From positions 56,839 to 120,838 of IMG/VR virus record IMGVR_UViG_3300025934_000015: DNA of 64,000 bases. One strand, 5' to 3'. The stretch is from a virus. Taxonomy: Duplodnaviria > Caudoviricetes. Under the pieces are notes generated by a model. It had not been told where the DNA came from. It saw only the letters and a list, made by a program, of their open reading frames with translations, and made no database searches. A program made the position numbers and the translations under genes. This document shows, in pieces, positions 3,801 to 48,678 of this stretch; the stretch's first letter is position 1, and the number at the start of each line of letters is the position of its first letter.

Positions 3801-6800
3801 TGATCATCTGGCATCACGCGGTATCACGAGTACACGTGTGGACGTCCCCTCGGCGTCCCTGCGGCCCAGTCAGGCGCAACTCGACGGTCCCAAAATCGCC
3901 AAGCGCATGGTCCAGAAGGACTACCGGCCCAGTAGTCCGATCTTTATCTCACGTGACGGTTACATCGTGGATGGCCACCACCGTTGGGCAGCCGTGGTCG
4001 GCCGCGACGCCGAAGACGGACACTTAGGCGACTCCACGATCCGCGCCTACAAGATTGACGCGCCGATCAGCGAGATCCTGAACATTGCGAAGACCTGGAC
4101 TAAGACCTTTGGGCTCGAACAGAAGGGGATTGGGCGCGCGGCTGGTGGACCCGGGAGCGGGAATTTCGGCCATAGCGGACGGCCGGGTGAAGTCGGTGGA
4201 TCGTCCAGTGAGGGCGGATCAGCCGTCACGAAAAGTACGCCGTTCAAACGATGGTTCAAACAATCCAAAGTCGTCGACGCGGAAGGCAAACCGCTGGTCG
4301 TCTACCACGGTACGACGCATGACTTCGACACGTTTGAACCGGCGGGCTCGGATAAGTACAACATCGAATCCGACTTCGGCGCAGCCGCCTATTTCTCCAA
4401 CTCCGCGTCGGATGTATCCGAAAACTACGCAGGTGTAGGGCCGGATCTCACGAGCCGTCTGGAACAGCGTGCCGACCAACTGACGAGCGAGAACGACGAG
4501 CTGGATCATGAGGCCGCACTGAAGCAGGCGCGCGAGGAGTTAGTGGGCCGGAGCGGCGCGCTGGGCGTGCCCGTCTATCTGTCGATGCAAAACCCCTTTG
4601 TGCTGGGGGACGCGTACGACGAGGATCATCCGGTCAAGGAAACCTACCTCACGCACGAGTATGTCTACGACGATCCCAATGACCCCGATTCTGACATCGT
4701 GGGTGAGGAAGGCACGCTCGTCGACTTTATCACCGCGTTGAAGGATGAGGCTGGGCAGTTCCACGATACCGAAGGCGTTGATGACTTCCTGACGAAGTTA
4801 GCGGATAACAGCTTTGATGGCATGCACGCCAGTGAACTCGACAAACTGTGGCGCACCACGGAAACGACTGCCTATGTGACCGACGATCAGGGGCGGCTGG
4901 CAGGCAACGAACTCTATCGACGTGCGCTGGAGCGCGCAGGGTTCGATGGCGTGATTGACCGCTCGGTCGATACGAAGTTTGGCTCGGCACGGCGCATTGG
5001 TAAGCAGATGATCGGTGTGACTGCCGATACCGAACATTACATCGTCTTCAAACCCCAGCAGATTAAGTCCGCTATCGGGAATCGGAAGTTTAACCCGAAG
5101 AGTCCCGTGATCACGCTCGGTGGTCCGGGCTCCGGCAACTTCGGTCACGCCGGACGGCCCGGTGAAGTCGGGGGCTCTGGCGTAGGCGACAGTACCGCGC
5201 ACTTACCGGAATCGGTCGCGTATGTCCTGCGGGCGCGCGAACAGAAATTAAAGGAACTTGACTACGAAGCCGCCGCTATTCTCTCACCTACGGGCGAGGT
5301 GGTGAATTATATCTCCAGTTACGCGAAGGACTACATCACGATCGATGAAAAGTTGAAGCCAAGTTTGGCCGATACCATCTTTACCCACAATCATCCGGGC
5401 AGTAACGGTCTGAGTCTGGCGGACGGCGACGTGGCGGTTAACCTGAATATCCGCGAGATACGAGCGATTGGCGCGGATGGGCGTGTGCATAGTCTGCGAC
5501 GCGAGGGCGACCGTTGGCCGGACAATTTTATGGCCCTGGTGCGTGTGGCGGACTATGAAACGCAAAAGACCTTTTCTGAGGAGATCCGCGCCGGACACAT
5601 GACGATGCAGGAGGCCAATGCGAAGCACTACGATCATGTGTACGCAACGGCTGTAGCAAAAATCCCTGGTGTCGCGTTCGTGATGGCTCCCAGTCTGCCG
5701 GTGGTCTCGGAGGTCCATGTCTGAGATCATTTTGATTGACGATCGTGAGTTCCGGATCCCGGTCTACACCGAGGAGAGTGTCCGCACACTCGGCGGTCCC
5801 GGCTCGGGCAACTTCGGCCACAGCGGACGCCCTGGCGAGGTGGGGGGCTCCGCGCCCGAGGACGGACCGGCCATCGGTGGCAGCATCCGCGCGCAAAAAG
5901 AGGAAGGCGTGCGCCGCGTCGAAGCGCTCCTCGACAAGGCGGTCAAGTCGGCGGACTTTACGGTCGCGGGTGACGAGAGTTATACCGAAGACGATTTGAC
6001 CTGGAGTGATTTCTCCAGTACGCAGCAGGATCGCGCATTTGAAAATTTCCGTGACCAGTCCTATAACGAAGGCGTGGAGGTTGATGATAGCGAGATCATC
6101 AGTGACCTCTACAAGGACTTATACCGCGATAACGAGAAGGTCGTCGAGGAGGCTTCACAGAAGTTAATCGACGACATCAATAATCCGGAGTCCACGGTTC
6201 AGGCGTTTCAGCAGACGACCGAACTGCCGTTTACCACGGAGAGTGGCGAGCCCGCGCCGGTGGTGCAGCGGTTCTATCTCGATCCCGACACGATCGAAGC
6301 GGAAGAAGATACGGGCGATGGCGCGCCCCTCAATGAGGACGCCCTGCGTCTGACCAATGGTGAGGAGCTGACGCCCCAACAAAAAGAAGCCGTGGACATG
6401 CTCTGGTCCCATCACTACGAAGCGGAGATGGACAAGGCCAAGGAGCGGGTGACCGAGAGTGACGAATACTCCGAGCGCCGCAATGAGTTAGAGTCTGAGG
6501 AGATCGATAGTCAGTGGAATAACATGTCCGACTCGAAGAAGATCGACTATCTCGATCAAAACGACAAGGACGCTGCACTCGAAGAGAAGGCTGGTACCGG
6601 AACTGAAACCTTAGACAACTCCGAACCCGATAACTGGATTGTCGATACGGAAGTCGAGGAATCCACCGGCCGCGCCACGGATGAGAGCAAGCGGGAGGAC
6701 TACGACAAGACCCGCATTCTCGCGCGGAAGCTGGCCGAACTGCGCACATCGGAGATCCTAACTGAACGCGGGTTAAGTACGACGGGCGCGGCGGACATTC

Positions 6801-40178: not shown

Positions 40179-40258
40179 TGGCAGGACAGGCCGGATTCGA
40201 ACCGACGAATCGGAGATTTGCAGCCTCCGCTGGATTTACCCATTACCAGAACTGTCCT
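40179..40258 (-). tRNA. tRNA with GCA (Cys) anticodon and a non-canonical acceptor (A1-U72, G73)
   Basis: Cloverleaf AGGACAG/CTGTCCT, CTGG/CCAG, GGAGG-CTGCAAA-TCTCC, GTCGG-TTCGAAT-CCGGC; encoded CCA. Confidence 0.9.
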
Positions 40259-40266
40259 ATTGAAAA

Positions 40267-40343
40267 TGGCGGCGGTGACAGGATTCGAACCTGCGAATCT
40301 ACGCTGCACAGGCGTAGCTGTTAGGCCACTTCAGCACACCGCA
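40267..40343 (-). tRNA. tRNA with GUG (His) anticodon, U1:C72 mismatch, G73 and C37
   Basis: TGCGGTG/CACCGCC, TACGC-CTGTGCA-GCGTA, GCAGG-TTCGAAT-CCTGT; encoded CCA. Confidence 0.85.
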
Positions 40344-40431
40344 TCATCTACGCTGCCACACCGGGCAACGGCCCAAGGACGCAGTCCCGTACACGTCCTC
40401 CCGCTGCGATCCCGGTGTGGCATTATCATGG

Positions 40432-40605
40432 TTACTTCGCGCGCACGGGCGCGGTATAGACGACCACCGCGATCATGCTCAACAGAATCAGCACGGTCAC
40501 GAGAGGCCCGGCCGATCCGTGCAGATCCACGACGGCACCGCGGATGAACAGCGCGAGGATCACGCCGAGGATCACGTTCGTGACGGCGGCGACGAGCGCT
40601 CTCAT
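40432..40605 (-). CDS. Small two-TM membrane protein
   Basis: MRALVAAVTNVILGVILALFI...PLVTVLILLSMIAVVVY. Confidence 0.6.
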   Translation of the reverse strand: MRALVAAVTNVILGVILALFIRGAVVDLHGSAGPLVTVLILLSMIAVVVYTAPVRAK

Positions 40606-41327
40606 TTGCCTGCCATCCCACCGAGTCCACTCAGCGATATACAGTCGAGATACTCGAACCACGCCGTTTCACTGCGGCCCAACCAGACCCCATTGCACGC
40701 CAGCCGACGGGCGGCGCGTTCCACGATCCCACGCTCGTCTTGATTGGCCTCGTTCATACACGCCTGCAGGTCATCCCACGCCGCGCTGACTTCGGTGGAA
40801 TAGCTACTGCCGCACCCAGCGCGCGTCCGCTGCCGGACCTTCACCAGTCCGAACGTTTTTGACATGTAGCGATCGGCCAGTCGGCGTGGCGCGTCCACGT
40901 CGCCACCGACCGCCACAGTAAACGCCACGGCGGTCAGCAGGGCCATGTCCGGTACGTCCAGGGTGCTCACGTCGATTTGCTCTGCGAGGAGCTGACGCGC
41001 CGCCATGACCGCTTCGGAGTCCGCGAGCAGCGCCTGCGCCTCCAGGAGTGTTTTGGCAGACGTTAGGTCCACGGTTTTGCCATTCCGCGTGACGCGCGTG
41101 CGATCGGGCCGTGCCTCGATGGTGAGACTATCGGTGCCGTACACCAGCGCGATGTCGATCCGGCCGGTTTTGTGGTTGCCTACCTTGCTGATTTGGAGTC
41201 CGTCGTAGTTGGCGACGAGCTGTGACAGATCGCCATTCCGTCCGCCGCGGATCTTGGGAACGTGGTCGCCTCCATAGCTTGCAGTTGCCGTGAGTGCCAG
41301 GATCAATGTACCCAGTAGTACTCGCAT
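40602..41327 (-). CDS. Secreted protein with C-terminal cysteines
   Basis: Signal peptide MRVLLGTLILALTATASYG; four Cys; RBS AAGGAG. Confidence 0.75.
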   Translation of the reverse strand: MRVLLGTLILALTATASYGGDHVPKIRGGRNGDLSQLVANYDGLQISKVGNHKTGRIDIALVYGTDSLTIEARPDRTRVTRNGKTVDLTSAKTLLEAQALLADSEAVMAARQLLAEQIDVSTLDVPDMALLTAVAFTVAVGGDVDAPRRLADRYMSKTFGLVKVRQRTRAGCGSSYSTEVSAAWDDLQACMNEANQDERGIVERAARRLACNGVWLGRSETAWFEYLDCISLSGLGGMAGK

Positions 41328-41387
41328 GTCCGACTCCTTGGTGAATGTTGCTCAACATTGCCCCAAGACATTCGTGCGCGACTCGGA

Positions 41388-41936
41388 TTATGCCTCCTTA
41401 CGTTCCGTGATCGTCAGCGATCGCAGGCGCTTTTCGCATTGCGTGATGGTTTCTGGGTTCATATGCATGGCCCCGCACATGCGGATGTAGAAGAGCAACC
41501 AAAACTGCGTCACCCGTCCACCATCGACATGAAAAAACCCGATGATCTCTGCACCGTGGATGAGATGCAGTAACCAATGATGGGGATACTGATCATGATC
41601 CCTACGAAACGCCATAATCGTGGCTTCGCCATTGGGCGGCAAACCGGAATAGTCGCCCATGAAATCGTCGCCGGGCGTGCCCTTCTCGTGCGCGTTGACG
41701 AGAATGGCGGCACGGTACGCGCGTGTCAGATCCTTGGCGAGCCCTTCTTTCGGCGCGTTGTCTGGCCCTCGCAGGGCCAGCAGGAGCGTGCCCTGCATGG
41801 CCAGTGGCAGCTCCGTAACCCAGGGCTGGAGGACGGACACGGGTCGTGGTGGACCGTGCAGGCAGTCTCTAATCAACGCGCACCGCGGACAATCGGCCCG
41901 GTCATGCACCCAATCAGGATGGTAGGGACAGCTCAC
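41388..41936 (-). CDS. Phage hypothetical protein (His-rich)
   Basis: SVLQPWV..LP..MQ..LL.A.RGPD; PHHW..HL.H.AEI.G; HMNPE. Confidence 0.7.
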   Translation of the reverse strand: MSCPYHPDWVHDRADCPRCALIRDCLHGPPRPVSVLQPWVTELPLAMQGTLLLALRGPDNAPKEGLAKDLTRAYRAAILVNAHEKGTPGDDFMGDYSGLPPNGEATIMAFRRDHDQYPHHWLLHLIHGAEIIGFFHVDGGRVTQFWLLFYIRMCGAMHMNPETITQCEKRLRSLTITERKEA

Positions 41937-41937
41937 G

Positions 41938-42717
41938 CTATTCCTCTAGCGATTTGAAGGACTCGAACATCTTGCGATATTTCTCGATGGTCGCCTGGAG
42001 TTTCTGATTGTCACTCTCGACCGATTCGACGTACTCGCGCACCAGCGCCAGTCCCGCAATCGAATCGTCAAGCACCTTCAGCGCCGAGAGGCGTTTGTTG
42101 ATCTCCGGAGCCACGGCGGATCCGGGGCGGTCCGTCATGCCGCGCTTGCGCTTGAACTTGGCAATCGACTGCGTGACGGACCCTAACGTCGTTTGGATGC
42201 CCTGCTCTTGCGCCAGTTTGAATAGCCGCCGTGCTTCCTCCGCGGTGGACTTCGTCGGGTCACACTGCGACGCGAGGTTAGCCACAGCGTTTTTGGGCGC
42301 AATGGTTTTCTTGGCGACCTCGGTGATCTTGGCGGCTTCCCCAACCGTGGCCGTGCCGGGTGCATGGCCATTACCATTCGACGAGGCCACGTGCTCTGTG
42401 ACCATCCGCGACGTCGCCACGATTTTCCGCAACTCGTTTTCTAGCGAGCCGGTCGTGGGCCGGTACATGGTAATGGTCTTGCGCCGCCGAACCTCGGTCA
42501 TGAGGCGGTCATAGAACCGTTTCGGCAGACCTTGCGTGGTCAGGAAGGCTTTGTTATTCGAGATAAAACACTTCTCGACATCCTGCGTGTCGAATTTGGC
42601 GGTCTCTAGCACGCGCACGCAGGGATGGTGCAGGTAGTCCACCGGACAATCAACACCTTTGCCGAGGAGCACGGTGACAACGCCGCCTTCGGCTAATGAG
42701 ACAACTTGATCTGGCAT
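41938..42717 (-). CDS. Hypothetical protein, basic with a C-terminal coiled coil
   Basis: RBS AAGGAG before MPDQ. Confidence 0.7.
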   Translation of the reverse strand: MPDQVVSLAEGGVVTVLLGKGVDCPVDYLHHPCVRVLETAKFDTQDVEKCFISNNKAFLTTQGLPKRFYDRLMTEVRRRKTITMYRPTTGSLENELRKIVATSRMVTEHVASSNGNGHAPGTATVGEAAKITEVAKKTIAPKNAVANLASQCDPTKSTAEEARRLFKLAQEQGIQTTLGSVTQSIAKFKRKRGMTDRPGSAVAPEINKRLSALKVLDDSIAGLALVREYVESVESDNQKLQATIEKYRKMFESFKSLEE

Positions 42718-43087
42718 AGCTCCTTCATTCGTTCGTGTGCGAGGTTTCACCCAGCGCGGTCCACGCTCGCCCAACACTCCACAGCAAAACGGCCACGCAT
42801 GCCCATGTCCGCACAGAATCATGGACAGCCACCGCCGCTGTCAACGCGCAGGACGCCGCCAGGGCCACGACGCTCCACAGCACTACGGCGCGCACGGCGA
42901 CGTCCCCGTCAGACGGAAGTACTCCGCCTTGTACATGGCTATCCGTTCGTGGAAGAACGCGCGGTCCGAGTCGCTGTTGAGTGGGTCAGCCACCGCCTGT
43001 GTATCGCGGACAATCTGATCCGCCAACGCCTGCGTCCACGGCACGGGCGTCGCCACGGCCGGAGCCGGATAGAGATCAGCAAACAGA

Positions 43088-43393
43088 TCACTTTGTGGCA
43101 CGATGCCCCCAATCCCGCAAGCGCTGATCAATGTAGTCGGTGACGGTCATCTGTCTGAGGTACTTCACCACGTGCACGTGCGTGACCTCGGTGCGTTCCC
43201 ACTCGTAGAGCAGATTCGATTGCCCACAGTGGCACACGACTTTATCATCGTGTGGCAGGCATTCGAGGATCCGGCCGGTGGTGGGGCACTGGTAGAATCC
43301 GCCCCACAGCCGCTGGTGAATAGCGATGAGCGCGGCGCGGTCAATGCGCGTGAGGTCAATGTGGGACGCGGGACGGTCTACGTAGTGGGGCAT
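43088..43393 (-). CDS. Hypothetical Cys/His protein
   Basis: Coupled ORF; CPTTG..LECL..DDKV.C.C. Confidence 0.5.
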   Translation of the reverse strand: MPHYVDRPASHIDLTRIDRAALIAIHQRLWGGFYQCPTTGRILECLPHDDKVVCHCGQSNLLYEWERTEVTHVHVVKYLRQMTVTDYIDQRLRDWGHRATK

Positions 43394-43587
43394 GACCCGA
43401 TCCAGATAAGCAGCGTGCCGTCTCGTCGTACCAGATCCGCGCGCACCAGCGCACGAATGCAGGAATCAAATTCCTCGGCGGTCAGCTCGGGCTGCATGAC
43501 GTCAAACAGCCGCGCGGCGTCCACCTCGGTGGCGGCGCGGATGGCCTCGGCCAGACCGACGACCGCGGGCACGGGCGTGGAAGTCAT
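43378..43587 (-). CDS. Small winged-helix-like protein
   Basis: F..CI.AL.RADLVRRDG.LL.W.G. Confidence 0.5.
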   Translation of the reverse strand: MTSTPVPAVVGLAEAIRAATEVDAARLFDVMQPELTAEEFDSCIRALVRADLVRRDGTLLIWIGSCPTT

Positions 43588-43608
43588 AGGGTTCCCATAG
43601 GTTGGCGG

Positions 43609-43638
43609 ACTCTACTATAGTTTAAAACCGGCTGTCAA
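43609..43638 (-). promoter_or_regulatory. Sigma70-type promoter
   Basis: TTGACA-18-TAGAGT. Confidence 0.6.
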
Positions 43639-43904
43639 GACCGGATTCCGTCAGGGACGCTTCTTGACGGTGACGATGTTGAAGCGCGCATAGTGAAAGA
43701 CGTCCCAACTGATCCGACACCGCGTACATCCGACACGTCGTCGTACATAGCGTTTGCCGGGTGTCCATCCACACAGATGATTAAACAATCGATAGGCAAT
43801 GCGATGACGCTTACTTGTCCGACACCTCGGACATTGAATAAGCGCGTTCACCATTGCTAAGACCATTCTGTGGTGAACAAACGCATCGGGCGTGAGGTGC
43901 GCCA

Positions 43905-44342
43905 TTACACCCGCTTTCGAAAGAACCCGTAGACGCAGCGACGTCCGTCGCGCGTGGGATCGTGTGTGTCGAAGATAACGCCGTCGATGACGGCCACGAC
44001 GTGTTTCGACACCTGCACAATCAACCGGCCGGGTGGTAGCTCCTCGGCGCACAGATGGACCGTGCAGCCGCTGCCAATGCGCATGGTGGGCACCCACTCC
44101 CAGCCGAGGTCCACCAGCAGACGCTTCCAGGTCTCCTTGTAAACGCCACTGCGCGCGTGACTGCGACTGCGGCCCTGCCGAGGGCGTTCACACTGTGCCA
44201 GTGCGTTGATCTGATCATAGACCCAGCGGTAGTCCCGCCCCGTGGCAATGGCAATCGCGCGGGTCACGCAGTCGCCCGGAGCCTTGGCGGCAAAGCCCGC
44301 GGCTGTGCGACCCCCATCGTCGTAGACGTAGCGTGCGGCCAT
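43905..44342 (-). CDS. Phage protein with a GDCV.RAI motif (possible Cys-His-Asp fold)
   Basis: GDCVTRAIAIATG; HVVAVIDG..DTHD. Confidence 0.7.
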   Translation of the reverse strand: MAARYVYDDGGRTAAGFAAKAPGDCVTRAIAIATGRDYRWVYDQINALAQCERPRQGRSRSHARSGVYKETWKRLLVDLGWEWVPTMRIGSGCTVHLCAEELPPGRLIVQVSKHVVAVIDGVIFDTHDPTRDGRRCVYGFFRKRV

Positions 44343-44344
44343 GA

Positions 44345-44659
44345 TCAGCGCTCCTCGACCAGCCGATACCGACCAATCCGTTGCACGGGATTGGCCAGCG
44401 CCCACTGTGGCAGATGCCGGTCCAGATGGTCTGCCTTCTCGCGCGTGATGCCTGCGTCGCCGCTGACTGTGCTGACGTCGGCCCACTGGTGCCCGTCGTC
44501 CTCGGCCCGCCGAATGGCGACGTAGATAATCGGGTTCCGGAGTTCCATGGCTTGCTCCGTGGCCTTCCGGCCTTCTTCCGCCAGGACCTTGTGATGCGCA
44601 TCCATGGCGGTAATTTCTTCAGGTGACAGACGTGTGAAAATCGACTGACGGCGTGCCAT
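44345..44659 (-). CDS. Hypothetical protein
   Basis: RBS GGAG before MARRQ. Confidence 0.6.
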   Translation of the reverse strand: MARRQSIFTRLSPEEITAMDAHHKVLAEEGRKATEQAMELRNPIIYVAIRRAEDDGHQWADVSTVSGDAGITREKADHLDRHLPQWALANPVQRIGRYRLVEER

Positions 44660-44756
44660 GGCTACTCCAGTCCCTCCCGCCACATCGGGCGGGAGGCCAG
44701 TTTGTTGGTCATCAATCGCTGCCAGAACGCAAGTATGACGGTCAGCATGATCATCC

Positions 44757-45452
44757 TTAGAAGGGCATGTCGAGAAATTCTTCCGTCGTGGCCGTCGCCG
44801 TGTCGTCGTCGACGTCCTCGGCCACCACGGGCACCACGGTCTTGAGCGCGGGCGTGCCCTTCGGCGTATGCGGCAGGCCGTAGTTGTCAGCGCAGATAGG
44901 ACCGTAGCCGACTTCCACCGACCCGGCGTCCTCCAGCTTGAGGTTACAGAAGGAGCAGTGGCAGTAGAGCGCGCCATACGCCTTGGCGGCGACCGCGGGC
45001 GCGGCGGCAATTGTGGTCAGCAGGGTCAGGACGTCCACGCGGCGCGTCAGGTCGCCGCGCACGGTGCCGTCCACGGCAATGGACCCCAGGTACTCGTCGC
45101 GGAGATAGACGAAGACCGCGCCTGGGTTCTTGCTGGACGCCTTCGCCAGCGTTAGGCGGAGTTCCGCATTCTGCGGCCCGAGGAAACGCACGTTGGGCTG
45201 CTTGACGGTCACGGCGCGTTTGCCGGTCTTGGCGGCACGCTCGGCGGCACGCTCCTGGGCGCGGGTGTAGGCGGCGCGCAGAAACGCGGCAATCGGTGCG
45301 GCGTCCGCCTTGACCGGCGCAGCCTTCGCCACACAGTCGGCCGCGTTGACGTGCGTGGAACCTTCGCTGCGCTCCCAATTGATGGTCTGGCCGACCGCGA
45401 TACGGCCGTTGCACTTCTTACAGAACCCCGCAAACCGTGAATTGATGATCAT
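44757..45452 (-). CDS. DUF6011-like zinc-finger protein
   Basis: C-terminal CSFCNLKLED..SVE.GYGPICA; N-terminal CKKC. Confidence 0.8.
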   Translation of the reverse strand: MIINSRFAGFCKKCNGRIAVGQTINWERSEGSTHVNAADCVAKAAPVKADAAPIAAFLRAAYTRAQERAAERAAKTGKRAVTVKQPNVRFLGPQNAELRLTLAKASSKNPGAVFVYLRDEYLGSIAVDGTVRGDLTRRVDVLTLLTTIAAAPAVAAKAYGALYCHCSFCNLKLEDAGSVEVGYGPICADNYGLPHTPKGTPALKTVVPVVAEDVDDDTATATTEEFLDMPF

Positions 45453-45458
45453 GGATAC

Positions 45459-45487
45459 AGCATATCGGGTCGTTCGACGTACGTCAA
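45459..45487 (-). promoter_or_regulatory. Sigma70 promoter, apparently leaderless
   Basis: TTGACG-17-TATGCT-6 nt-ATG. Confidence 0.75.
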
Positions 45488-45530
45488 GCCACCAAATGCG
45501 TGATCCCATAAGTCCAATATTATCAATAGG

Positions 45531-45992
45531 TTAGCGGACCGGCCATGACGGACCCTCGGGTACCAGCGGCCCGAGGAGAAATTCCTCGTGGTAGCGCGCG
45601 TGCCACCAGCCGCCGCCCTGAAAATACCGCAGCGGTTTGCGATCGCCCAACCGGAGCGCGTCATACGTGCCGGAGGACACGCTGGTGGTAAACCGTTCGG
45701 TCGCGTCCTCGTACCGAATGGCCCACGACGGCGGAATCCAGTCGGTCGTGCACGACACGTGGCCTTTGCCGTCCGTGTTGCACGTGGTGTCGTAGTGACC
45801 CGGGTGGTAGGCTTTATCGATGATCGTGACCTCGGTGACCTGCGGCGTAGACGTCCACCAGTCCTGGGCGCACGATCCGCAGAGCACGAGGATCACGACG
45901 ATGGCCAGCGCGCCGAACAGCCACGACCAGTGATAATCGTCGTACACGATCACTCCGTCAAACGCGGAAACTTCTGAAGCCGCTTGAGACAT
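45531..45992 (-). CDS. Membrane-anchored hypothetical protein
   Basis: TM segment WLFGALAIVVILVLC; start uncertain. Confidence 0.6.
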   Translation of the reverse strand: MSQAASEVSAFDGVIVYDDYHWSWLFGALAIVVILVLCGSCAQDWWTSTPQVTEVTIIDKAYHPGHYDTTCNTDGKGHVSCTTDWIPPSWAIRYEDATERFTTSVSSGTYDALRLGDRKPLRYFQGGGWWHARYHEEFLLGPLVPEGPSWPVR

Positions 45993-46179
45993 GCGGCGCA
46001 CTGCTGTTCAATGAACAGATCCACGTCCCACCCGTACCGGGGCAGCGTGCCGCAGACCGCGCGCCGACGGCCGATCGACATTCGTGTCTCGGTCGTCTGG
46101 CACGACACGGCGTGCGTACGCCAGCCCTTGTGTGTGCCGTTCGGACGTCCGGCCGTGGTCAGCCACTGGATGGGCATGG

Positions 46180-46302
46180 CTACTTGGCGTTTTTCAGGTA
46201 CGTGCTGTCGCAGTGCGGACACGTCCACGCCGGTTCGGCCAGCGTGGGATGCTGCTTCAGGATCGCCTCCACATTGCGCTTGCACATCATGCACCATTTC
46301 AT
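46180..46302 (-). CDS. Small zinc-ribbon protein (40 aa)
   Basis: CMMC...CPHC; RBS GAGG. Confidence 0.55.
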   Translation of the reverse strand: MKWCMMCKRNVEAILKQHPTLAEPAWTCPHCDSTYLKNAK

Positions 46303-46305
46303 GGG

Positions 46306-46470
46306 TCACCTCACCAGATCGCGCAGCGCATTGGCGGCAGTCCACGCTTCCTTGAGCCCGCAGCCGGTCTGTTCGCGTAGGTACTTGATCGACTCGATGA
46401 AGTAACCATTGCGAATGAGCGTCATGGCCACATCAGCAATGCGCCGCCACTCCTGTTTGGTCAGCGTCAT
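46306..46470 (-). CDS. Ribosomal protein bL12 (L7/L12) C-terminal-domain-like mini-protein (54 aa)
   Basis: IESIKYLREQTGCGLKEA resembles I..IK.VR..TGLGLKEAK; RBS GGGAG; below the ORF-track size cutoff. Confidence 0.65.
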   Translation of the reverse strand: MTLTKQEWRRIADVAMTLIRNGYFIESIKYLREQTGCGLKEAWTAANALRDLVR

Positions 46471-46850
46471 GCGGGCACTCCCTGCCAGTACTTACGATAG
46501 TCGGGGTGGTCGGTGCCCTCGCGACGGCGCTGAGTGACGCCAGACCGCAGCAGACGGCCGGGGTCGGTTTCGCGGTTGATCACCTCGGTGACGCGGGACT
46601 CGGCAATGATCGTGACCTGTGTGGTCGGCCAGATCGTGTACTCCTCGAACCCGAGGTAGCGCATGAGTCCGCCGGTATACGTGTAGTCCGACGTATGCAC
46701 GTAGGGCCGGAACAGGGTAATCACCTCGTCGGTGATGTTGACGACTGTGGACTGGGTGTACTCGACGCCACGGAGTACTTGAACCTCGATGACGTCGCCC
46801 ATTCGCAGATCGCGCGCGAGGCACGTATATGGCACAGTGGTAATGTTCAT
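46467..46850 (-). CDS. Hypothetical protein
   Basis: ATGA-coupled ORF. Confidence 0.6.
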   Translation of the reverse strand: MNITTVPYTCLARDLRMGDVIEVQVLRGVEYTQSTVVNITDEVITLFRPYVHTSDYTYTGGLMRYLGFEEYTIWPTTQVTIIAESRVTEVINRETDPGRLLRSGVTQRRREGTDHPDYRKYWQGVPA

Positions 46851-47083
46851 GATGTAGCCTTAGCGGTGTCGAAGCGCGCCAGCACGCGCTCCAGGGTGGT
46901 CTTGCGGGCTTCGAGCTGAATAATCATGCTGTAGAGATTGACGCAGGGTCCGGCGAAATCGTAACCGCGACGACGGTTGTTCGCGGCCTCCCGCTCGATG
47001 ACCTCCAGCTTCGACGCCCATTCACGGGTGACCTCGGTGAGTTCGTGCCGCAGGTCCGTGAGAATCTCGGTGACGGTATCCAT
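46847..47083 (-). CDS. Hypothetical coiled-coil protein
   Basis: ATG 7 nt after a -10 box. Confidence 0.6.
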   Translation of the reverse strand: MDTVTEILTDLRHELTEVTREWASKLEVIEREAANNRRRGYDFAGPCVNLYSMIIQLEARKTTLERVLARFDTAKATS

Positions 47084-47090
47084 GTCTACG

Positions 47091-47119
47091 ATCCTAGCAG
47101 GCGTGCGCGAGCCTGTCAA
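47091..47119 (-). promoter_or_regulatory. Sigma70 promoter, apparently leaderless
   Basis: TTGACA-17-TAGGAT-7 nt-ATG. Confidence 0.75.
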
Positions 47120-47121
47120 CA

Positions 47122-47514
47122 TCAAAATCCGCGGTAGGGTTCGTACCGCAATTCGGCGCGCTGGATGGTTGCGAGGACGTGAATGGCGTACTGCACGTGG
47201 CGCGCATCGGGGTCTGGTGCGTGTTGCACCATCTTTTCCAAGGCGTCGTACAGCTCCGGTGCGTGTTCCAGCAGCGAGTAGAGCGCGCGGATTTTGTTGC
47301 CATCGAAGCCATCCCGGGTGCCATCGCCTACCACCATGCCGCCTTCGAGGAGAGAATATCCGCCATCGACTGGTCGGCCCTCGTCATCGTTGTCCGGATC
47401 CCACGAGCGGATATCTACGTAGGGCGCAAAGTCGCCGGGCGTGTCGGTGTGGCCCTGTTTATCACCCGCGTGAATGCGGATGGCCAAGGCTTCCGGCCAG
47501 AGCGTCGTTCTCAT
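47122..47514 (-). CDS. Hypothetical protein
   Basis: RBS AAGGAG; HAPELYDALE tail. Confidence 0.6.
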   Translation of the reverse strand: MRTTLWPEALAIRIHAGDKQGHTDTPGDFAPYVDIRSWDPDNDDEGRPVDGGYSLLEGGMVVGDGTRDGFDGNKIRALYSLLEHAPELYDALEKMVQHAPDPDARHVQYAIHVLATIQRAELRYEPYRGF

Positions 47515-47726
47515 GAAAAATACTCCTTGGCCGCTTGCTCAGACGTGAAGCGGATCGTTTCTTCGACGTAGACCGCTTTGTCGGTGATGGTGACGCGCTC
47601 GCACGTGACCGTGGGACCGTCCTTACCGACCTCGATTCGGTCATCGGTGTGCGGACACGCCACCAGTTGTACCGTTTTGTGCGCCTTCCAGAATCCCACG
47701 CCGACGGTTACATGGACGGTAATCAT
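47511..47726 (-). CDS. Hypothetical protein
   Basis: ATG 8 nt after a -10 box. Confidence 0.55.
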   Translation of the reverse strand: MITVHVTVGVGFWKAHKTVQLVACPHTDDRIEVGKDGPTVTCERVTITDKAVYVEETIRFTSEQAAKEYFS

Positions 47727-47734
47727 GATGGTTC

Positions 47735-47763
47735 ACTCTAGCGGTATACGAAACGTCTGTCAA
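47735..47763 (-). promoter_or_regulatory. Sigma70 promoter, apparently leaderless
   Basis: TTGACA-17-TAGAGT-8 nt-ATG. Confidence 0.7.
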
Positions 47764-47925
47764 TCGCAAAATCACCGCAGGACCGAAAGGTGCAGCGAAT
47801 GTCCAGATTCCGGAAGAATTATCATCAAACCGTCTAGGATGGCGTCTGGGCGTGGTTAATGGCCACTGGCCAAACCTCCGTGACGAATTGTAGACGCGCC
47901 CATATGGAGCCGTCCCCAGCCGGTC

Positions 47926-48678
47926 CTAGCCGCCAGCCGTGGCCGGGTCCGGCTGGTTGGGTTGGTCCGCCCAGGCCCGAGGAATCCGGCTCGACAGATA
48001 CGCACGGTCCGCGGTGAACACGGGAATATCGGGATCCAACAGCCACCCACTGATCTCGTCGCGCAGCAGACACCGCCCGCGCTTCCAATACGGCAGCTCC
48101 GCGTTCCAGTTGATCCCGCGGTCCGTAAACAGCAGATCCTGGAGCTGACTGGTATTCAGTCCGTGGATCTGCTTGTGACTGAAATGCGCCTGCGCCAGGG
48201 ATTGGATATTGTTGCGCGTGGCGTCCTGCTGTCGCCAAATGAAGTAGTTCTCGACTTCGACGGCATCCGGAATGGTAAACACGCGCGCATCAAAGTGCGC
48301 CATGTTCGGATTGGGCGCGCCCGCATAGTACGCGGCAAATGCGGCGGTGACGACGGACGCCGAGACGGAGACGATCTTCTGGAGGTTGCCGTCAAACCAT
48401 GCGTCGGTCGTGGGCAGCATGAAGTCGGTCAGTAGGACCGAGATCTCATCACTCTGGAGGTAGGCGAGTTGCGCACCTTGGGCTTCCTCGCACAACCGCC
48501 GCGCCGCGCCGTCCAGGGCATGTGCGAGCGCTTTATCGTTCGGTTTCTCGCAGTGCCGCGTGAACGTGTGGAAGGCTTTGCCGTCTACACGAATGATCGT
48601 GTAGGTCCGCCTCGGCAGCATCACGCGCGTGCGGTCCTCGTACTGCCGCTTCATCCGATCGCCCAGACTGTTATTCAT
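47926..48678 (-). CDS. thg1: tRNA(His) guanylyltransferase / Thg1-like protein (3'-5' polymerase)
   Basis: RVDGKAFHTFT, QSDEIS, WFDG..QK, FDARVF, YFIWRQ.DA.RN, WKRG. Confidence 0.95.
   Translation of the reverse strand: MNNSLGDRMKRQYEDRTRVMLPRRTYTIIRVDGKAFHTFTRHCEKPNDKALAHALDGAARRLCEEAQGAQLAYLQSDEISVLLTDFMLPTTDAWFDGNLQKIVSVSASVVTAAFAAYYAGAPNPNMAHFDARVFTIPDAVEVENYFIWRQQDATRNNIQSLAQAHFSHKQIHGLNTSQLQDLLFTDRGINWNAELPYWKRGRCLLRDEISGWLLDPDIPVFTADRAYLSSRIPRAWADQPNQPDPATAGG

What the first reader, a model, noticed from the sequence alone, without database searches (positions are those of the whole stretch)
40267..48678. Defective-looking tRNA-His plus a Thg1-like enzyme: possible phage tRNA 5'-editing
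Seen: the GUG tRNA lacks G-1:C73 and has a U1:C72 mismatch, G73 and a pyrimidine at 37; an intact Thg1-like gene lies at 47926-48678. Known: Thg1 adds G-1 to tRNA-His, and Thg1-like proteins repair mismatched acceptor 5' ends by templated 3'-5' synthesis in protist mitochondria. Inference: the enzyme may edit U1 to G and/or add a -1 base. Alternatively the U1/G73 body is Gln-like with G34, paralleling the neighbouring Trp-like/GCA tRNA.
Basis: partly seen in the sequence, partly recalled or inferred. Interest (0 to 1): 0.7.

Follow-up and report, generated by a model that had tools for sequence, protein, structure and literature searches.

The report
Mis-wired phage tRNA pair, unrelated repair enzyme
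The odd histidine-anticodon tRNA of this soil phage is not a damaged gene awaiting repair by the nearby Thg1-like enzyme. It belongs to a conserved pair of phage tRNAs whose amino-acid-accepting ends do not match their anticodons, which makes them candidates for natural mistranslating tRNAs.

Summary
Observation confirmed. The tRNA(GUG) at 40267-40343(-) has U1xC72, G73, an encoded CCA, A at -1 and C37. An intact bacterial-type Thg1-like gene (TLP) lies at 47926-48678(-).

The editing idea is not supported:
- A syntenic relative (L430) carries the orthologous GUG tRNA with 8 of 20 pairs changed on both sides, and there 1:72 is a normal U1:A72.
- An unpaired U1 plus G73 is common in phage tRNA-Gln and Gln-type suppressors, including in a complete phage without a TLP.
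- 5' mismatches are no more frequent in TLP-carrying phages (9/472 vs 4/362).
- 3 of 15 complete TLP phages have no tRNA genes.

Both window tRNAs and both L430 tRNAs share one scaffold. Their His and Cys anticodons sit on acceptor ends that His and Cys tRNAs elsewhere almost never have (G73 in 0/30 His genes of the unselected sample; Cys has U73 in 41/42, the exception being L430). Pyrimidine-37 is conserved in the GUG genes.

Best reading: the TLP is a general 5'-end repair enzyme, and the tRNA pair is a separate, conserved, identity-mismatched cassette. Which amino acid the tRNAs carry is unknown.

Earlier notes of this scan had flagged phage TLPs beside odd tRNAs on other DNA, and the Trp-like GCA tRNA on this window.

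The parts
40267..40343 (-). tRNA with anticodon GUG on a non-His acceptor end: U1xC72, G2:C71, G73, encoded CCA, C37, A38, D-loop AAGUGGCCUAA, variable loop GAUUC
   Evidence: Ortholog L430:5834-5910 with 8 compensatory pairs.
40179..40258 (-). tRNA with anticodon GCA on a Trp-type acceptor end (A1:U72, G73, encoded CCA), 8 nt downstream of the GUG gene. It shares the GUG gene's scaffold.
   Evidence: (Rfam 28 bits). Family model R1 scores 62.3 bits, E=5e-15. Cys tRNAs elsewhere have U73 in 41/42.
40354..40422 (-). Strong two-tier hairpin directly upstream of the tRNA pair (outer arms of 11 bp). Role unknown; it could be a processing or promoter-associated element.
   Evidence: Fold; sequence.
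47926..48678 (-). Intact bacterial-type Thg1-like protein (TLP, 3'-5' RNA polymerase), 250 aa. It is an accessory gene with no demonstrated tie to the tRNA pair.
   Evidence: The closest relatives (69% identity or less) lie in unrelated phages that share only this gene. It is absent from capsid relatives.
41938..42822 (-). Conserved neighbour ORF of unknown function. It serves as the synteny anchor linking this locus to L430 and to further uncollected relatives.
   Evidence: tblastx at 49-55% to L430:5059-5565; homologues P0002-P0012.

Best explanation
Two separate things are present.

(1) The Thg1-like gene encodes a bacterial-type TLP, a template-dependent 3'-5' polymerase that fills in missing 5' nucleotides of tRNAs. 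Here, as in many other phages, it is a mobile accessory gene. It most likely keeps the tRNA pool of the infected cell intact and is not a dedicated maturation factor for the phage's own tRNA.

(2) The GUG tRNA and its GCA neighbour form a conserved, co-transcribed cassette built on one phage tRNA scaffold. The His and Cys anticodons sit on acceptor ends of other identities. The GUG gene has U1, a weak or absent 1:72 pair, G2:C71 and G73, which is the Gln (or Asn) type. The GCA gene has A1:U72 and G73, which is the Trp type. The U1xC72 non-pair is only a variant of the weak U1:A72 pair of this class and needs no editing.

By established identity rules (G-1:C73 for HisRS, U73 for CysRS), both tRNAs should be poor substrates for HisRS and CysRS. 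I infer that they are attenuated decoders (pyrimidine at 37) that either bring a non-cognate amino acid to CAY and UGY codons at a low level or occupy those codons uncharged.

Shown here: the anatomy, the conservation with covariation, the class statistics, and the lack of a TLP association. Inferred: the charging and the effect on translation.
For: TLP:
- Pfam, PHROG and PDB matches with the motifs kept.
- TLP homologues occur in 162 phage records. Iyer et al. 2021 (PMC7824862) list the enzyme among phage RNA-repair enzymes.
- BtTLP prefers 5'-truncated tRNAs of any isotype (PMC3061083).
- 3 of 15 TLP phages that are at least 90% complete have no tRNA gene.
- The closest TLPs lie in phages that share nothing else with this one. 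Capsid relatives lack both the TLP and the tRNAs.

No link to mismatches:
- 1:72 mismatches occur in 19/60 Met, 10/55 Gln/suppressor and 13/834 other tRNAs.
- For the other isotypes, TLP+ versus TLP- is 9/472 versus 4/362 (p=0.41). For positions 1-3 it is 15/472 versus 12/362 (p=1.0).
- Suppressor L168:889 has exactly U1xC72+G73 in a 100%-complete phage without a TLP.

Conserved family:
- L430 is syntenic and holds tandem GCA and GUG tRNAs.
- Between the two GUG genes, 8/20 pairs are changed on both sides and 39/40 cells are paired. U1, G73-CCA, Y37, the D-loop and the variable loop are conserved, and 1:72 is U:A in L430.
- Model R1 finds both GCA genes at 62-70 bits.

Identity statistics:
- His: G73 in 0/30 and U1+G73 in 0/30.
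- Gln: U1+G73 in 17/43. Asn: 22/34.
- Cys: 22/22 have G1:C72+U73. Trp: 12/22 have A1:U72+G73.
- Enlarged set: Cys has U73 in 41/42.
- The best matches of the GUG gene in 301 alpha-proteobacterial genomes are tRNA-Gln.
- Pyrimidine-37 occurs in only 18/944 phage tRNAs.
- Natural mistranslating tRNAs with weakened anticodon loops are documented (PMC10404621, PMC11415595).
Against: - Only one orthologous locus was found, so conservation rests on two phages.
- There are no RNA, 5'-end or aminoacylation data.
- The D-loop and variable loop of the scaffold are those of ordinary bacterial tRNA-Cys, and the window's GCA gene best matches genuine tRNA-Cys in its anticodon and T arms. 'Gln-type' and 'Trp-type' therefore describe the acceptor ends only.
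- GlnRS and TrpRS also read base 34, so efficient mischarging is not assured.
- The phage's own proteins are not poor in His (2.8%) or Cys (1.3%), so strong mistranslation would hurt the phage too.
- All three phage tRNAs have G34 and read NNY codons, which fits ordinary codon supplementation.
- The host and its identity rules are unknown.
- The TLP status of the L430 phage is unknown, because that contig is only 40% complete.
Confidence: 0.55

Rival explanations
1. RNase P or another nuclease removes U1, the phage TLP adds G1 opposite C72, and it may add C-1 opposite G73. This turns a defective transcript into a working, perhaps His-accepting, tRNA.
For: The TLP and a 1:72 mismatch lie in one genome. 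A tRNA lacking nucleotide 1, with C72 unpaired, is the preferred BtTLP substrate, and BtTLP adds C-1 opposite G73 at kcat/KM 1400 per M per s (PMC3061083). The 5' UG resembles the usual U(-1)/G(+1) RNase P context (sequence). Capsid relatives lack both the TLP and the tRNAs.
Against: The ortholog has U1:A72. The same end occurs without a TLP. There is no enrichment of 5' mismatches in TLP phages. TLPs occur in phages without tRNA genes. The genes lie 7.6 kb apart, and no nuclease or repair partner was recognised. Editing cannot explain G73 on the GCA neighbour. Most tRNA-His genes beside phage TLPs already encode G-1.
Confidence: 0.1
2. The two tRNAs are ordinary His and Cys donors. The (unknown) host's HisRS and CysRS rely mainly on the anticodon, and the unusual ends serve another purpose, such as escape from host nucleases that recognise tRNA ends.
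For: All three phage tRNAs (Gly GCC, His GUG, Cys GCA) decode NNY codons, and the phage uses many CAT, TGT and GGT codons, as in codon supplementation. Phage tRNAs are known to carry changes that evade tRNA-targeting defences (PMC10264068). A clade of alpha-proteobacteria has G-1-less tRNA-His recognised through A73, U72 and the anticodon (PMC9976931). The nearest cultured capsid relatives infect Brevundimonas.
Against: U73 is the strongest Cys determinant together with the anticodon, and G-1:C73 is the strongest for His (PMC9976931). Phage tRNAs obey these rules: 41/42 Cys have U73, and 28/30 His have C73 in the unselected sample (46/51 in the enlarged set). The two GCA orthologs differ at position 73 (G versus C) and neither has U. 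Of the sampled alpha-proteobacterial tRNA-His genes, 22/24 have G-1/C73 and 2/24 have A73; none has G73.
Confidence: 0.15
3. The cassette does not deliver amino acids. The RNAs act as decoys for anticodon nucleases or synthetases, or as uncharged A-site ligands at His and Cys codons.
For: Their features make them poor substrates for all four candidate synthetases (PMC9976931). The anticodon loops are weakened: Y37 in both GUG genes and C33 in the L430 GCA gene. The same genome carries other tRNA-like RNAs with Ro60.
Against: G73-CCA, or at least the full acceptor helix, is kept with compensatory changes, which suggests that the 3' end is used. There is no direct evidence for any decoy target.
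Confidence: 0.15
4. The two tRNA genes are decaying pseudogenes without function.
For: Rfam scores are low to moderate (41.5 and 28 bits). There is one mismatch, and the odd positions 37 and 73.
Against: Eight fully compensated pair changes, and loops unchanged apart from single pyrimidine switches in the D-loop and at position 37, between two phages whose neighbouring proteins are only about 50% identical. All tertiary-interaction nucleotides are kept.
Confidence: 0.05

Closest known systems
Bacterial Thg1-like proteins, e.g. Bacillus thuringiensis TLP (PDB 4KGK/4KGM; Rao et al. 2011, PMC3061083; Hyde et al. 2013, PMC3701042)
   Same: About 50% identity over nearly the whole length, the same two domains and the same acidic motifs. 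The expected activity is templated 3'-5' repair of 5'-truncated tRNAs of any isotype.
   Different: It is encoded by a phage. Neither the bacterial nor the phage enzymes have a known in vivo substrate, and no activity was tested here.
Mitochondrial tRNA 5'-editing of Acanthamoeba, Dictyostelium and chytrids (mismatched 5' ends removed and refilled by TLPs; summarised in PMC3061083)
   Same: A tRNA gene with a mismatch at the first acceptor pair, and a TLP gene in the same genome.
   Different: Only position 1 is affected. The mismatch is absent from the ortholog, is typical of the Gln-type end, and occurs without a TLP. There is no statistical association across phages and no nuclease candidate.
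Dual-identity mistranslating tRNAs of Streptomyces/Kitasatospora (tRNAProA/ProN/ProT; PMC10404621; review PMC11415595)
   Same: Natural tRNAs in which the anticodon of one amino acid sits on the body or acceptor identity of another. Unusual anticodon-loop nucleotides may damp decoding.
   Different: Those tRNAs lie beside a dedicated ProRS isoform, and their mistranslation was shown experimentally. Here no synthetase gene is present, the carrier is a phage, and nothing is shown about charging.
Phage tRNA-Gln and Gln-derived amber suppressor tRNAs
   Same: U1 with an unpaired or weak 1:72, G2, G73 and an encoded CCA. The T-arm and 3' end best match alpha-proteobacterial tRNA-Gln.
   Different: The anticodon is GUG, not YUG or CUA. 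The D-loop and variable loop are of the type seen in bacterial tRNA-Cys. Position 37 is a pyrimidine.
Phage tRNAs with anticodon-loop changes that evade host anticodon nucleases (van den Berg et al. 2023, PMC10264068)
   Same: Phage tRNAs that depart from host consensus in the anticodon loop (here C37/U37, and C33 in L430).
   Different: Those tRNAs keep their cognate acceptor identity. Here the acceptor identity itself is non-cognate.

Membership tests
Thg1/TLP superfamily (bacterial-type TLP) | Thg1 catalytic (palm) domain above Pfam's threshold | tested here: met
   PF04446: 97.3 bits against a cut-off of 29.2. PHROG 4717: E=1e-78.
Thg1/TLP superfamily (bacterial-type TLP) | C-terminal Thg1C domain and full-length similarity to a characterised TLP | tested here: met
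   PF14413 scores 26.0 bits, just under its 26.3 cut-off, but residues 3-229 align to BtTLP 4KGK at E=1e-61.
Thg1/TLP superfamily (bacterial-type TLP) | Metal-binding acidic residues (the D of the ..VDG.. motif and the DE of ..SDE..) | tested here: met
   Both motifs are identical to BtTLP in the printed alignment.
Thg1/TLP superfamily (bacterial-type TLP) | Templated 3'-5' nucleotide addition | not testable with these tools
   Needs an enzyme assay.
tRNA 5'-editing system (mitochondrial type) | Genomically encoded mismatch within the first three acceptor pairs | tested here: met
   U1xC72 only.
tRNA 5'-editing system (mitochondrial type) | The mismatch is maintained in relatives, or TLP presence goes with mismatched tRNA genes | tested here: not met
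   The ortholog has U1:A72. TLP+ versus TLP- is 9/472 versus 4/362, p=0.41. The same end occurs in a complete TLP-less phage.
tRNA 5'-editing system (mitochondrial type) | The mature RNA differs from the gene at the 5' end | not testable with these tools
   No RNA run is listed for this DNA.
Bacterial tRNA-His | Anticodon GUG | tested here: met
Bacterial tRNA-His | Encoded G-1 paired with C73 (or A73 with G1:U72 in one alpha-proteobacterial clade) | tested here: not met
   A at -1, G73, U1xC72. Phage His genes have C73 in 28/30 and G73 in 0/30. Alpha-proteobacterial His genes have G-1/C73 in 22/24.
tRNA-Gln-type acceptor identity | U1 with a weak or open 1:72 pair, G2:C71, G73 | tested here: met
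   These features are listed as Gln determinants in PMC9976931.
tRNA-Gln-type acceptor identity | G3:C70, G10, and a YUG anticodon with A37 | tested here: not met
   C3:G70, C10:G25, anticodon GUG, C37.
tRNA-Cys (neighbouring gene) | GCA anticodon together with U73 and G1:C72 | tested here: not met
   GCA is present, but with G73 and A1:U72. U73 occurs in 41/42 phage Cys genes and in 37/37 metagenome and 15/15 alpha-proteobacterial Cys genes.
tRNA-Trp-type acceptor identity (neighbouring gene) | A1:U72 and G73 with a CCA anticodon | tested here: inconclusive
   The acceptor features are met (12/22 phage Trp genes and all six printed alpha-proteobacterial Trp genes of 20 share them). The anticodon is GCA, not CCA.
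Natural dual-identity (mistranslating) tRNAs | The anticodon of one amino acid on the acceptor identity of another, conserved in relatives | tested here: met
   Conservation rests on one ortholog only.
Natural dual-identity (mistranslating) tRNAs | Demonstrated mischarging or mistranslation, or a dedicated synthetase next to the gene | tested here: not met
   There is no class I Gln/Glu or Trp/Tyr synthetase domain in the phage, and the neighbours have no recognised family. Charging cannot be tested with these tools.

The most novel reading that the evidence does not exclude
A phage lineage carries a dedicated two-tRNA cassette that deliberately misreads His (CAY) and Cys (UGY) codons. In this reading, Gln/Asn-type and Trp- or His-type acceptor ends are charged by the host's non-cognate synthetases, and decoding is throttled by pyrimidine-37 or C33. 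This would be a virus-encoded, sense-codon mistranslation device aimed at the two main metal-binding and catalytic residues.
Probability: 0.22. Interest if true: 0.85.

Novelty: new variant of a known kind. Interest (0 to 1): 0.55.

Why it matters
Bacterial and phage TLPs still have no known natural substrate, so a phage tRNA that needs 5' editing would have been the first. The evidence here says this locus is not that case.

What remains is still unusual. His- and Cys-anticodon tRNAs on foreign acceptor ends are kept by compensatory evolution in two phages, which breaks two of the most uniform identity rules known (U73 for Cys, G-1:C73 for His). If the tRNAs are charged, they would be the first viral sense-codon mistranslators. 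If they are not charged, they are a new kind of tRNA-shaped effector. Either way, the locus offers a simple set of aminoacylation and reporter experiments.

The survey also gives a practical rule for annotators: an unpaired U1 with G73 in a phage tRNA marks the Gln or suppressor class, not a defect.

Tried and rejected
- RNA evidence: no RNA holder was listed for this DNA. The four DNA runs laid were contigs and showed only identical sequence over the tRNAs.
- An exact-match search for the tRNA's 3' half in IMG/VR found nothing.
- The neighbour ORF 40602-41327 has no relatives in IMG/VR.
- Capsid relatives (L083-L093) have no tRNA, TLP or family member.
- Nearest-neighbour classification of the tRNA bodies against 944 phage tRNAs was uninformative, because phage tRNAs are too diverged.
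- A pattern for GCA tRNAs with G73-CCA gave 15 chance hits and no tRNA.
- A pattern on the D-loop, variable loop and T-loop added only an initiator-like tRNA-Met in unrelated phages.
- The metagenome pattern returned only ordinary tRNA-Cys genes.
- Host identification failed. Bacterial TLP relatives (56% identity or less) are spread over Armatimonadota, Bacteroidota and Acidobacteriota. The nearest cultured capsid relatives infect Brevundimonas at only 36% identity.
- No RtcB, CCA-adding enzyme or RNA-ligase domain was found in the phage, and no Gln/Glu- or Trp/Tyr-type synthetase.
- ARAGORN's register had to be corrected in 21 of the first 190 tRNAs, where U(-1) pairs with A73, before mismatches could be counted.

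Full report
WHAT IS THERE. The window is the right-hand 64 kb of a 120,838-bp IMG/VR phage record with 59.9% G+C, judged complete. The whole genome has three tRNA genes:
- a canonical tRNA-Gly(GCC), with G1:C72, U73 and CCA;
- a tandem pair in the window: GUG at 40267-40343(-) and, 8 nt downstream, GCA at 40179-40258(-).

Rfam's tRNA model scores them 41.5 and 28 bits. The register of the GUG gene is fixed by U8, A14, G18G19, U33, the T-loop and an encoded CCA at exactly the right distance. In that register the gene has A at -1, U1 opposite C72, G73 and the anticodon loop CUGUGCA, so position 37 is C. Contigs from two other rhizosphere metagenomes carry the same letters. The ORF 47926-48678(-) is an intact Thg1-like protein:
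- Pfam Thg1 at 8e-28;
- PHROG 4717 at 1e-78;
- the B. thuringiensis TLP (4KGK) at 1e-61 over residues 3-229, with both acidic motifs kept.

IS THE TLP TIED TO THIS tRNA? Five lines of evidence say no.

(a) TLP genes are widespread in phages: 162 INPHARED records and at least 100 IMG/VR contigs. They are already read as RNA-repair genes (PMC7824862). The closest homologues (69%, 63% and 57% identity) lie in phages that share no other gene with this one. Capsid relatives of this phage have neither a TLP nor tRNAs.

(b) Of 15 TLP-carrying records that are at least 90% complete, 3 have no tRNA gene at all and several have a single one.

(c) tRNA-His genes next to phage TLPs nearly all encode G-1 opposite C73, so G-1 addition is not the general role of the enzyme.

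(d) I compared acceptor stems, after correcting ARAGORN's register, in two sets. One set was 532 unique tRNAs from TLP-carrying records. The other was 417 tRNAs from records picked by a generic T-arm motif in which no TLP was found; in that motif-picked sample as a whole a TLP was present in only 6 of 79 records.
- First-pair mismatches are a class feature: Met(CAU) 19/60, Gln and suppressor tRNAs 10/55, all other isotypes 13/834.
- Among the other isotypes the rate is 9/472 with a TLP against 4/362 without (Fisher p=0.41).
- For positions 1-3 it is 15/472 against 12/362 (p=1.0).

(e) The exact end seen here, an unpaired U1 followed by G2 with G73, is found in phage tRNA-Gln genes and Gln-type amber suppressors. 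One of these (L168:889) has U1xC72+G73 in a 178-kb, 100%-complete phage without a TLP.

A SECOND PHAGE WITH THE SAME PAIR. A pattern search for GUG-anticodon tRNAs ending in G73-CCA returned, among Ser and Asn genes that matched by chance, one real relative: L430, a 16.6-kb contig. It is syntenic with the window, with neighbouring proteins about 50% identical. It holds a tandem GCA gene (5752-5826) and GUG gene (5834-5910), which score 47 and 51 bits with Rfam.

The two GUG genes align without gaps:
- 8 of 20 base pairs are changed on both sides;
- 39 of 40 cells are paired;
- the single unpaired cell is the window's 1:72, and in L430 this pair is U1:A72.

Conserved between them are U1, G2:C71, G73-CCA, the D-loop AAGUGGYCUAA, the variable loop GAUUC, A38 and a pyrimidine at 37 (C or U). 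This is the signature of an RNA under purifying selection, not of a pseudogene. It also shows that the U1xC72 non-pair is a lineage-specific variant of a weak pair, not a feature that calls for repair. A covariance model built from the two GUG genes also finds both GCA genes (62 and 70 bits), so all four genes share one scaffold.

WHAT KIND OF tRNAs ARE THEY? In about 950 phage tRNAs:
- Cys(GCA) genes are 22/22 G1:C72 with U73;
- Trp genes are 21/22 G73, and 12/22 have A1:U72 with G73;
- His genes are 28/30 C73, and none has G73 or U1;
- U1 with G73 occurs in Gln (17/43), Asn (22/34) and suppressors, and in no His gene.

In the enlarged set of 1,533 tRNAs, Cys genes have U73 in 41/42, and the single exception is L430's own gene.

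In 301 alpha-proteobacterial genomes the recurrent best match of the window's GUG gene is tRNA-Gln(UUG), which shares its 5' strand, T-arm and G73-CCA. The GCA gene best matches genuine tRNA-Cys in its anticodon and T arms, but its acceptor end is Trp-like. The scaffold's D-loop and variable loop are those of ordinary bacterial tRNA-Cys: all 37 metagenome hits are Cys genes with U73.

The L430 GCA gene has G at -1, G1:C72 and C73, which is a His-type end, and also C33. In both phages, then, the His anticodon sits on a U1/G73 end and the Cys anticodon sits on an end without U73. Under established rules the strongest determinants are G-1:C73 for HisRS and U73 plus the anticodon for CysRS. U1:A72 and G73 are part of Gln identity and of GatCAB/GluRS2 discrimination (PMC9976931). 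The tRNAs should therefore be poor substrates for their 'anticodon' synthetases.

MECHANISM: WHAT IS SHOWN AND WHAT IS INFERRED.

Shown:
- the anatomy;
- the conservation with covariation;
- the class statistics;
- the absence of any TLP association.

Inferred:
- The TLP acts as a general 5'-end repair polymerase. BtTLP prefers 5'-truncated tRNAs of any isotype (PMC3061083).
- The cassette yields tRNAs of non-cognate or no charging, with damped decoding through Y37/C33. The parallel is Streptomyces dual-identity tRNAs and their odd anticodon loops (PMC10404621, PMC11415595).

Against efficient mistranslation:
- GlnRS and TrpRS also read base 34.
- The phage's own proteome has normal His (2.8%) and Cys (1.3%) contents.
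- No synthetase gene is present in the phage.
- All three phage tRNAs read NNY codons, which fits plain codon supplementation.

A tRNA cut after U1 would be an ideal TLP substrate, and BtTLP can add C-1 opposite G73. But nothing found here favours it, and I put it at about 0.1.

CONTEXT. The genome also encodes Ro60 (TROVE domain at genome 18368-19195) with Y RNAs according to earlier notes. It has no RtcB, CCA-adding enzyme or RNA ligase. The host is unknown. The nearest cultured capsid relatives infect Brevundimonas, and the tRNA-Gln similarity points weakly to alpha-proteobacteria.

LIMITS.
- Conservation rests on one ortholog.
- The L430 contig is only 40% complete, so its TLP status is open.
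- No RNA data exist for this DNA.

VERDICT. The TLP-editing interpretation is not supported.

Noticed in passing
L012:12703-12777 (TLP at L012:10001-10738; record G018, 110.9 kb, 100% complete, 3 tRNAs): A tRNA-His with G1:C72, C73 and CCA but C at -1, so no G-1 is encoded. It lies 2 kb downstream of that phage's TLP gene. This is a cleaner candidate for TLP-dependent, C73-templated G-1 addition than the window's tRNA.
   Followed up: partly
L064:3921-3993 versus L066:4190-4262: In two related TLP-carrying phages the tRNA-Thr(GGU) genes are otherwise near-identical. The L064 copy starts UG instead of GC, which looks like a 1-nt deletion that pulls U(-1) into position 1 and leaves positions 1 and 2 mismatched against an unchanged 3' strand. 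L062:5330 (a UCA suppressor) shows the same pattern.
   Followed up: partly
L053:1-10885 and L062:1622-10939: In two jumbo-phage contigs the TLP gene sits inside the tRNA array, with tRNA genes within 100 nt on both sides.
   Followed up: no
L430:5752-5826: The GCA tRNA of the relative has C33 in place of the near-universal U33, G at -1 with C73 (a His-type end), and no encoded CCA. Its tandem partner does encode CCA. The D-arms of the two L430 genes are identical, which suggests recent duplication or gene conversion.
   Followed up: partly
window 40354-40422 (-): A strong two-tier hairpin with 11-bp outer arms lies directly upstream of the tRNA pair. It may belong to the hairpin/promoter units that earlier notes describe elsewhere in this genome.
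   Followed up: no
sets A and B (L002-L193): In phage tRNAs, first-pair mismatches are concentrated in Met(CAU) genes (19/60, often U1xU72 or A1xC72 rather than the bacterial C1xA72) and in Gln/suppressor genes (10/55).
   Followed up: partly
one search list (e.g. L099:5058, L101:8082, L125:1577, L148:543): Eight of 32 phage tRNA-Asp(GUC) genes have a pyrimidine at position 37 in ARAGORN's frame. They account for nearly half of all pyrimidine-37 cases (18/944).
   Followed up: no
L485:4656-4729 and L486:912-985: Unrelated large phages carry an initiator-like tRNA-Met (U1xU72, A73) with the same D-loop (AAGUGGACUAA) and variable loop (GAUUC) as the scaffold described here.
   Followed up: no
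window 43523: A 3-base deletion polymorphism is present in contigs of all four metagenomes laid on the region. A diverged allele of 47691-47747, just downstream of the TLP gene, occurs in one run.
   Followed up: no
genome C1:19695-20012 (outside the window): At a lowered threshold ARAGORN calls two tRNA-like folds, one with GUG in the anticodon position, next to the Ro60 gene. These are probably the tRNA-like modules of the Y RNAs noted earlier.
   Followed up: no
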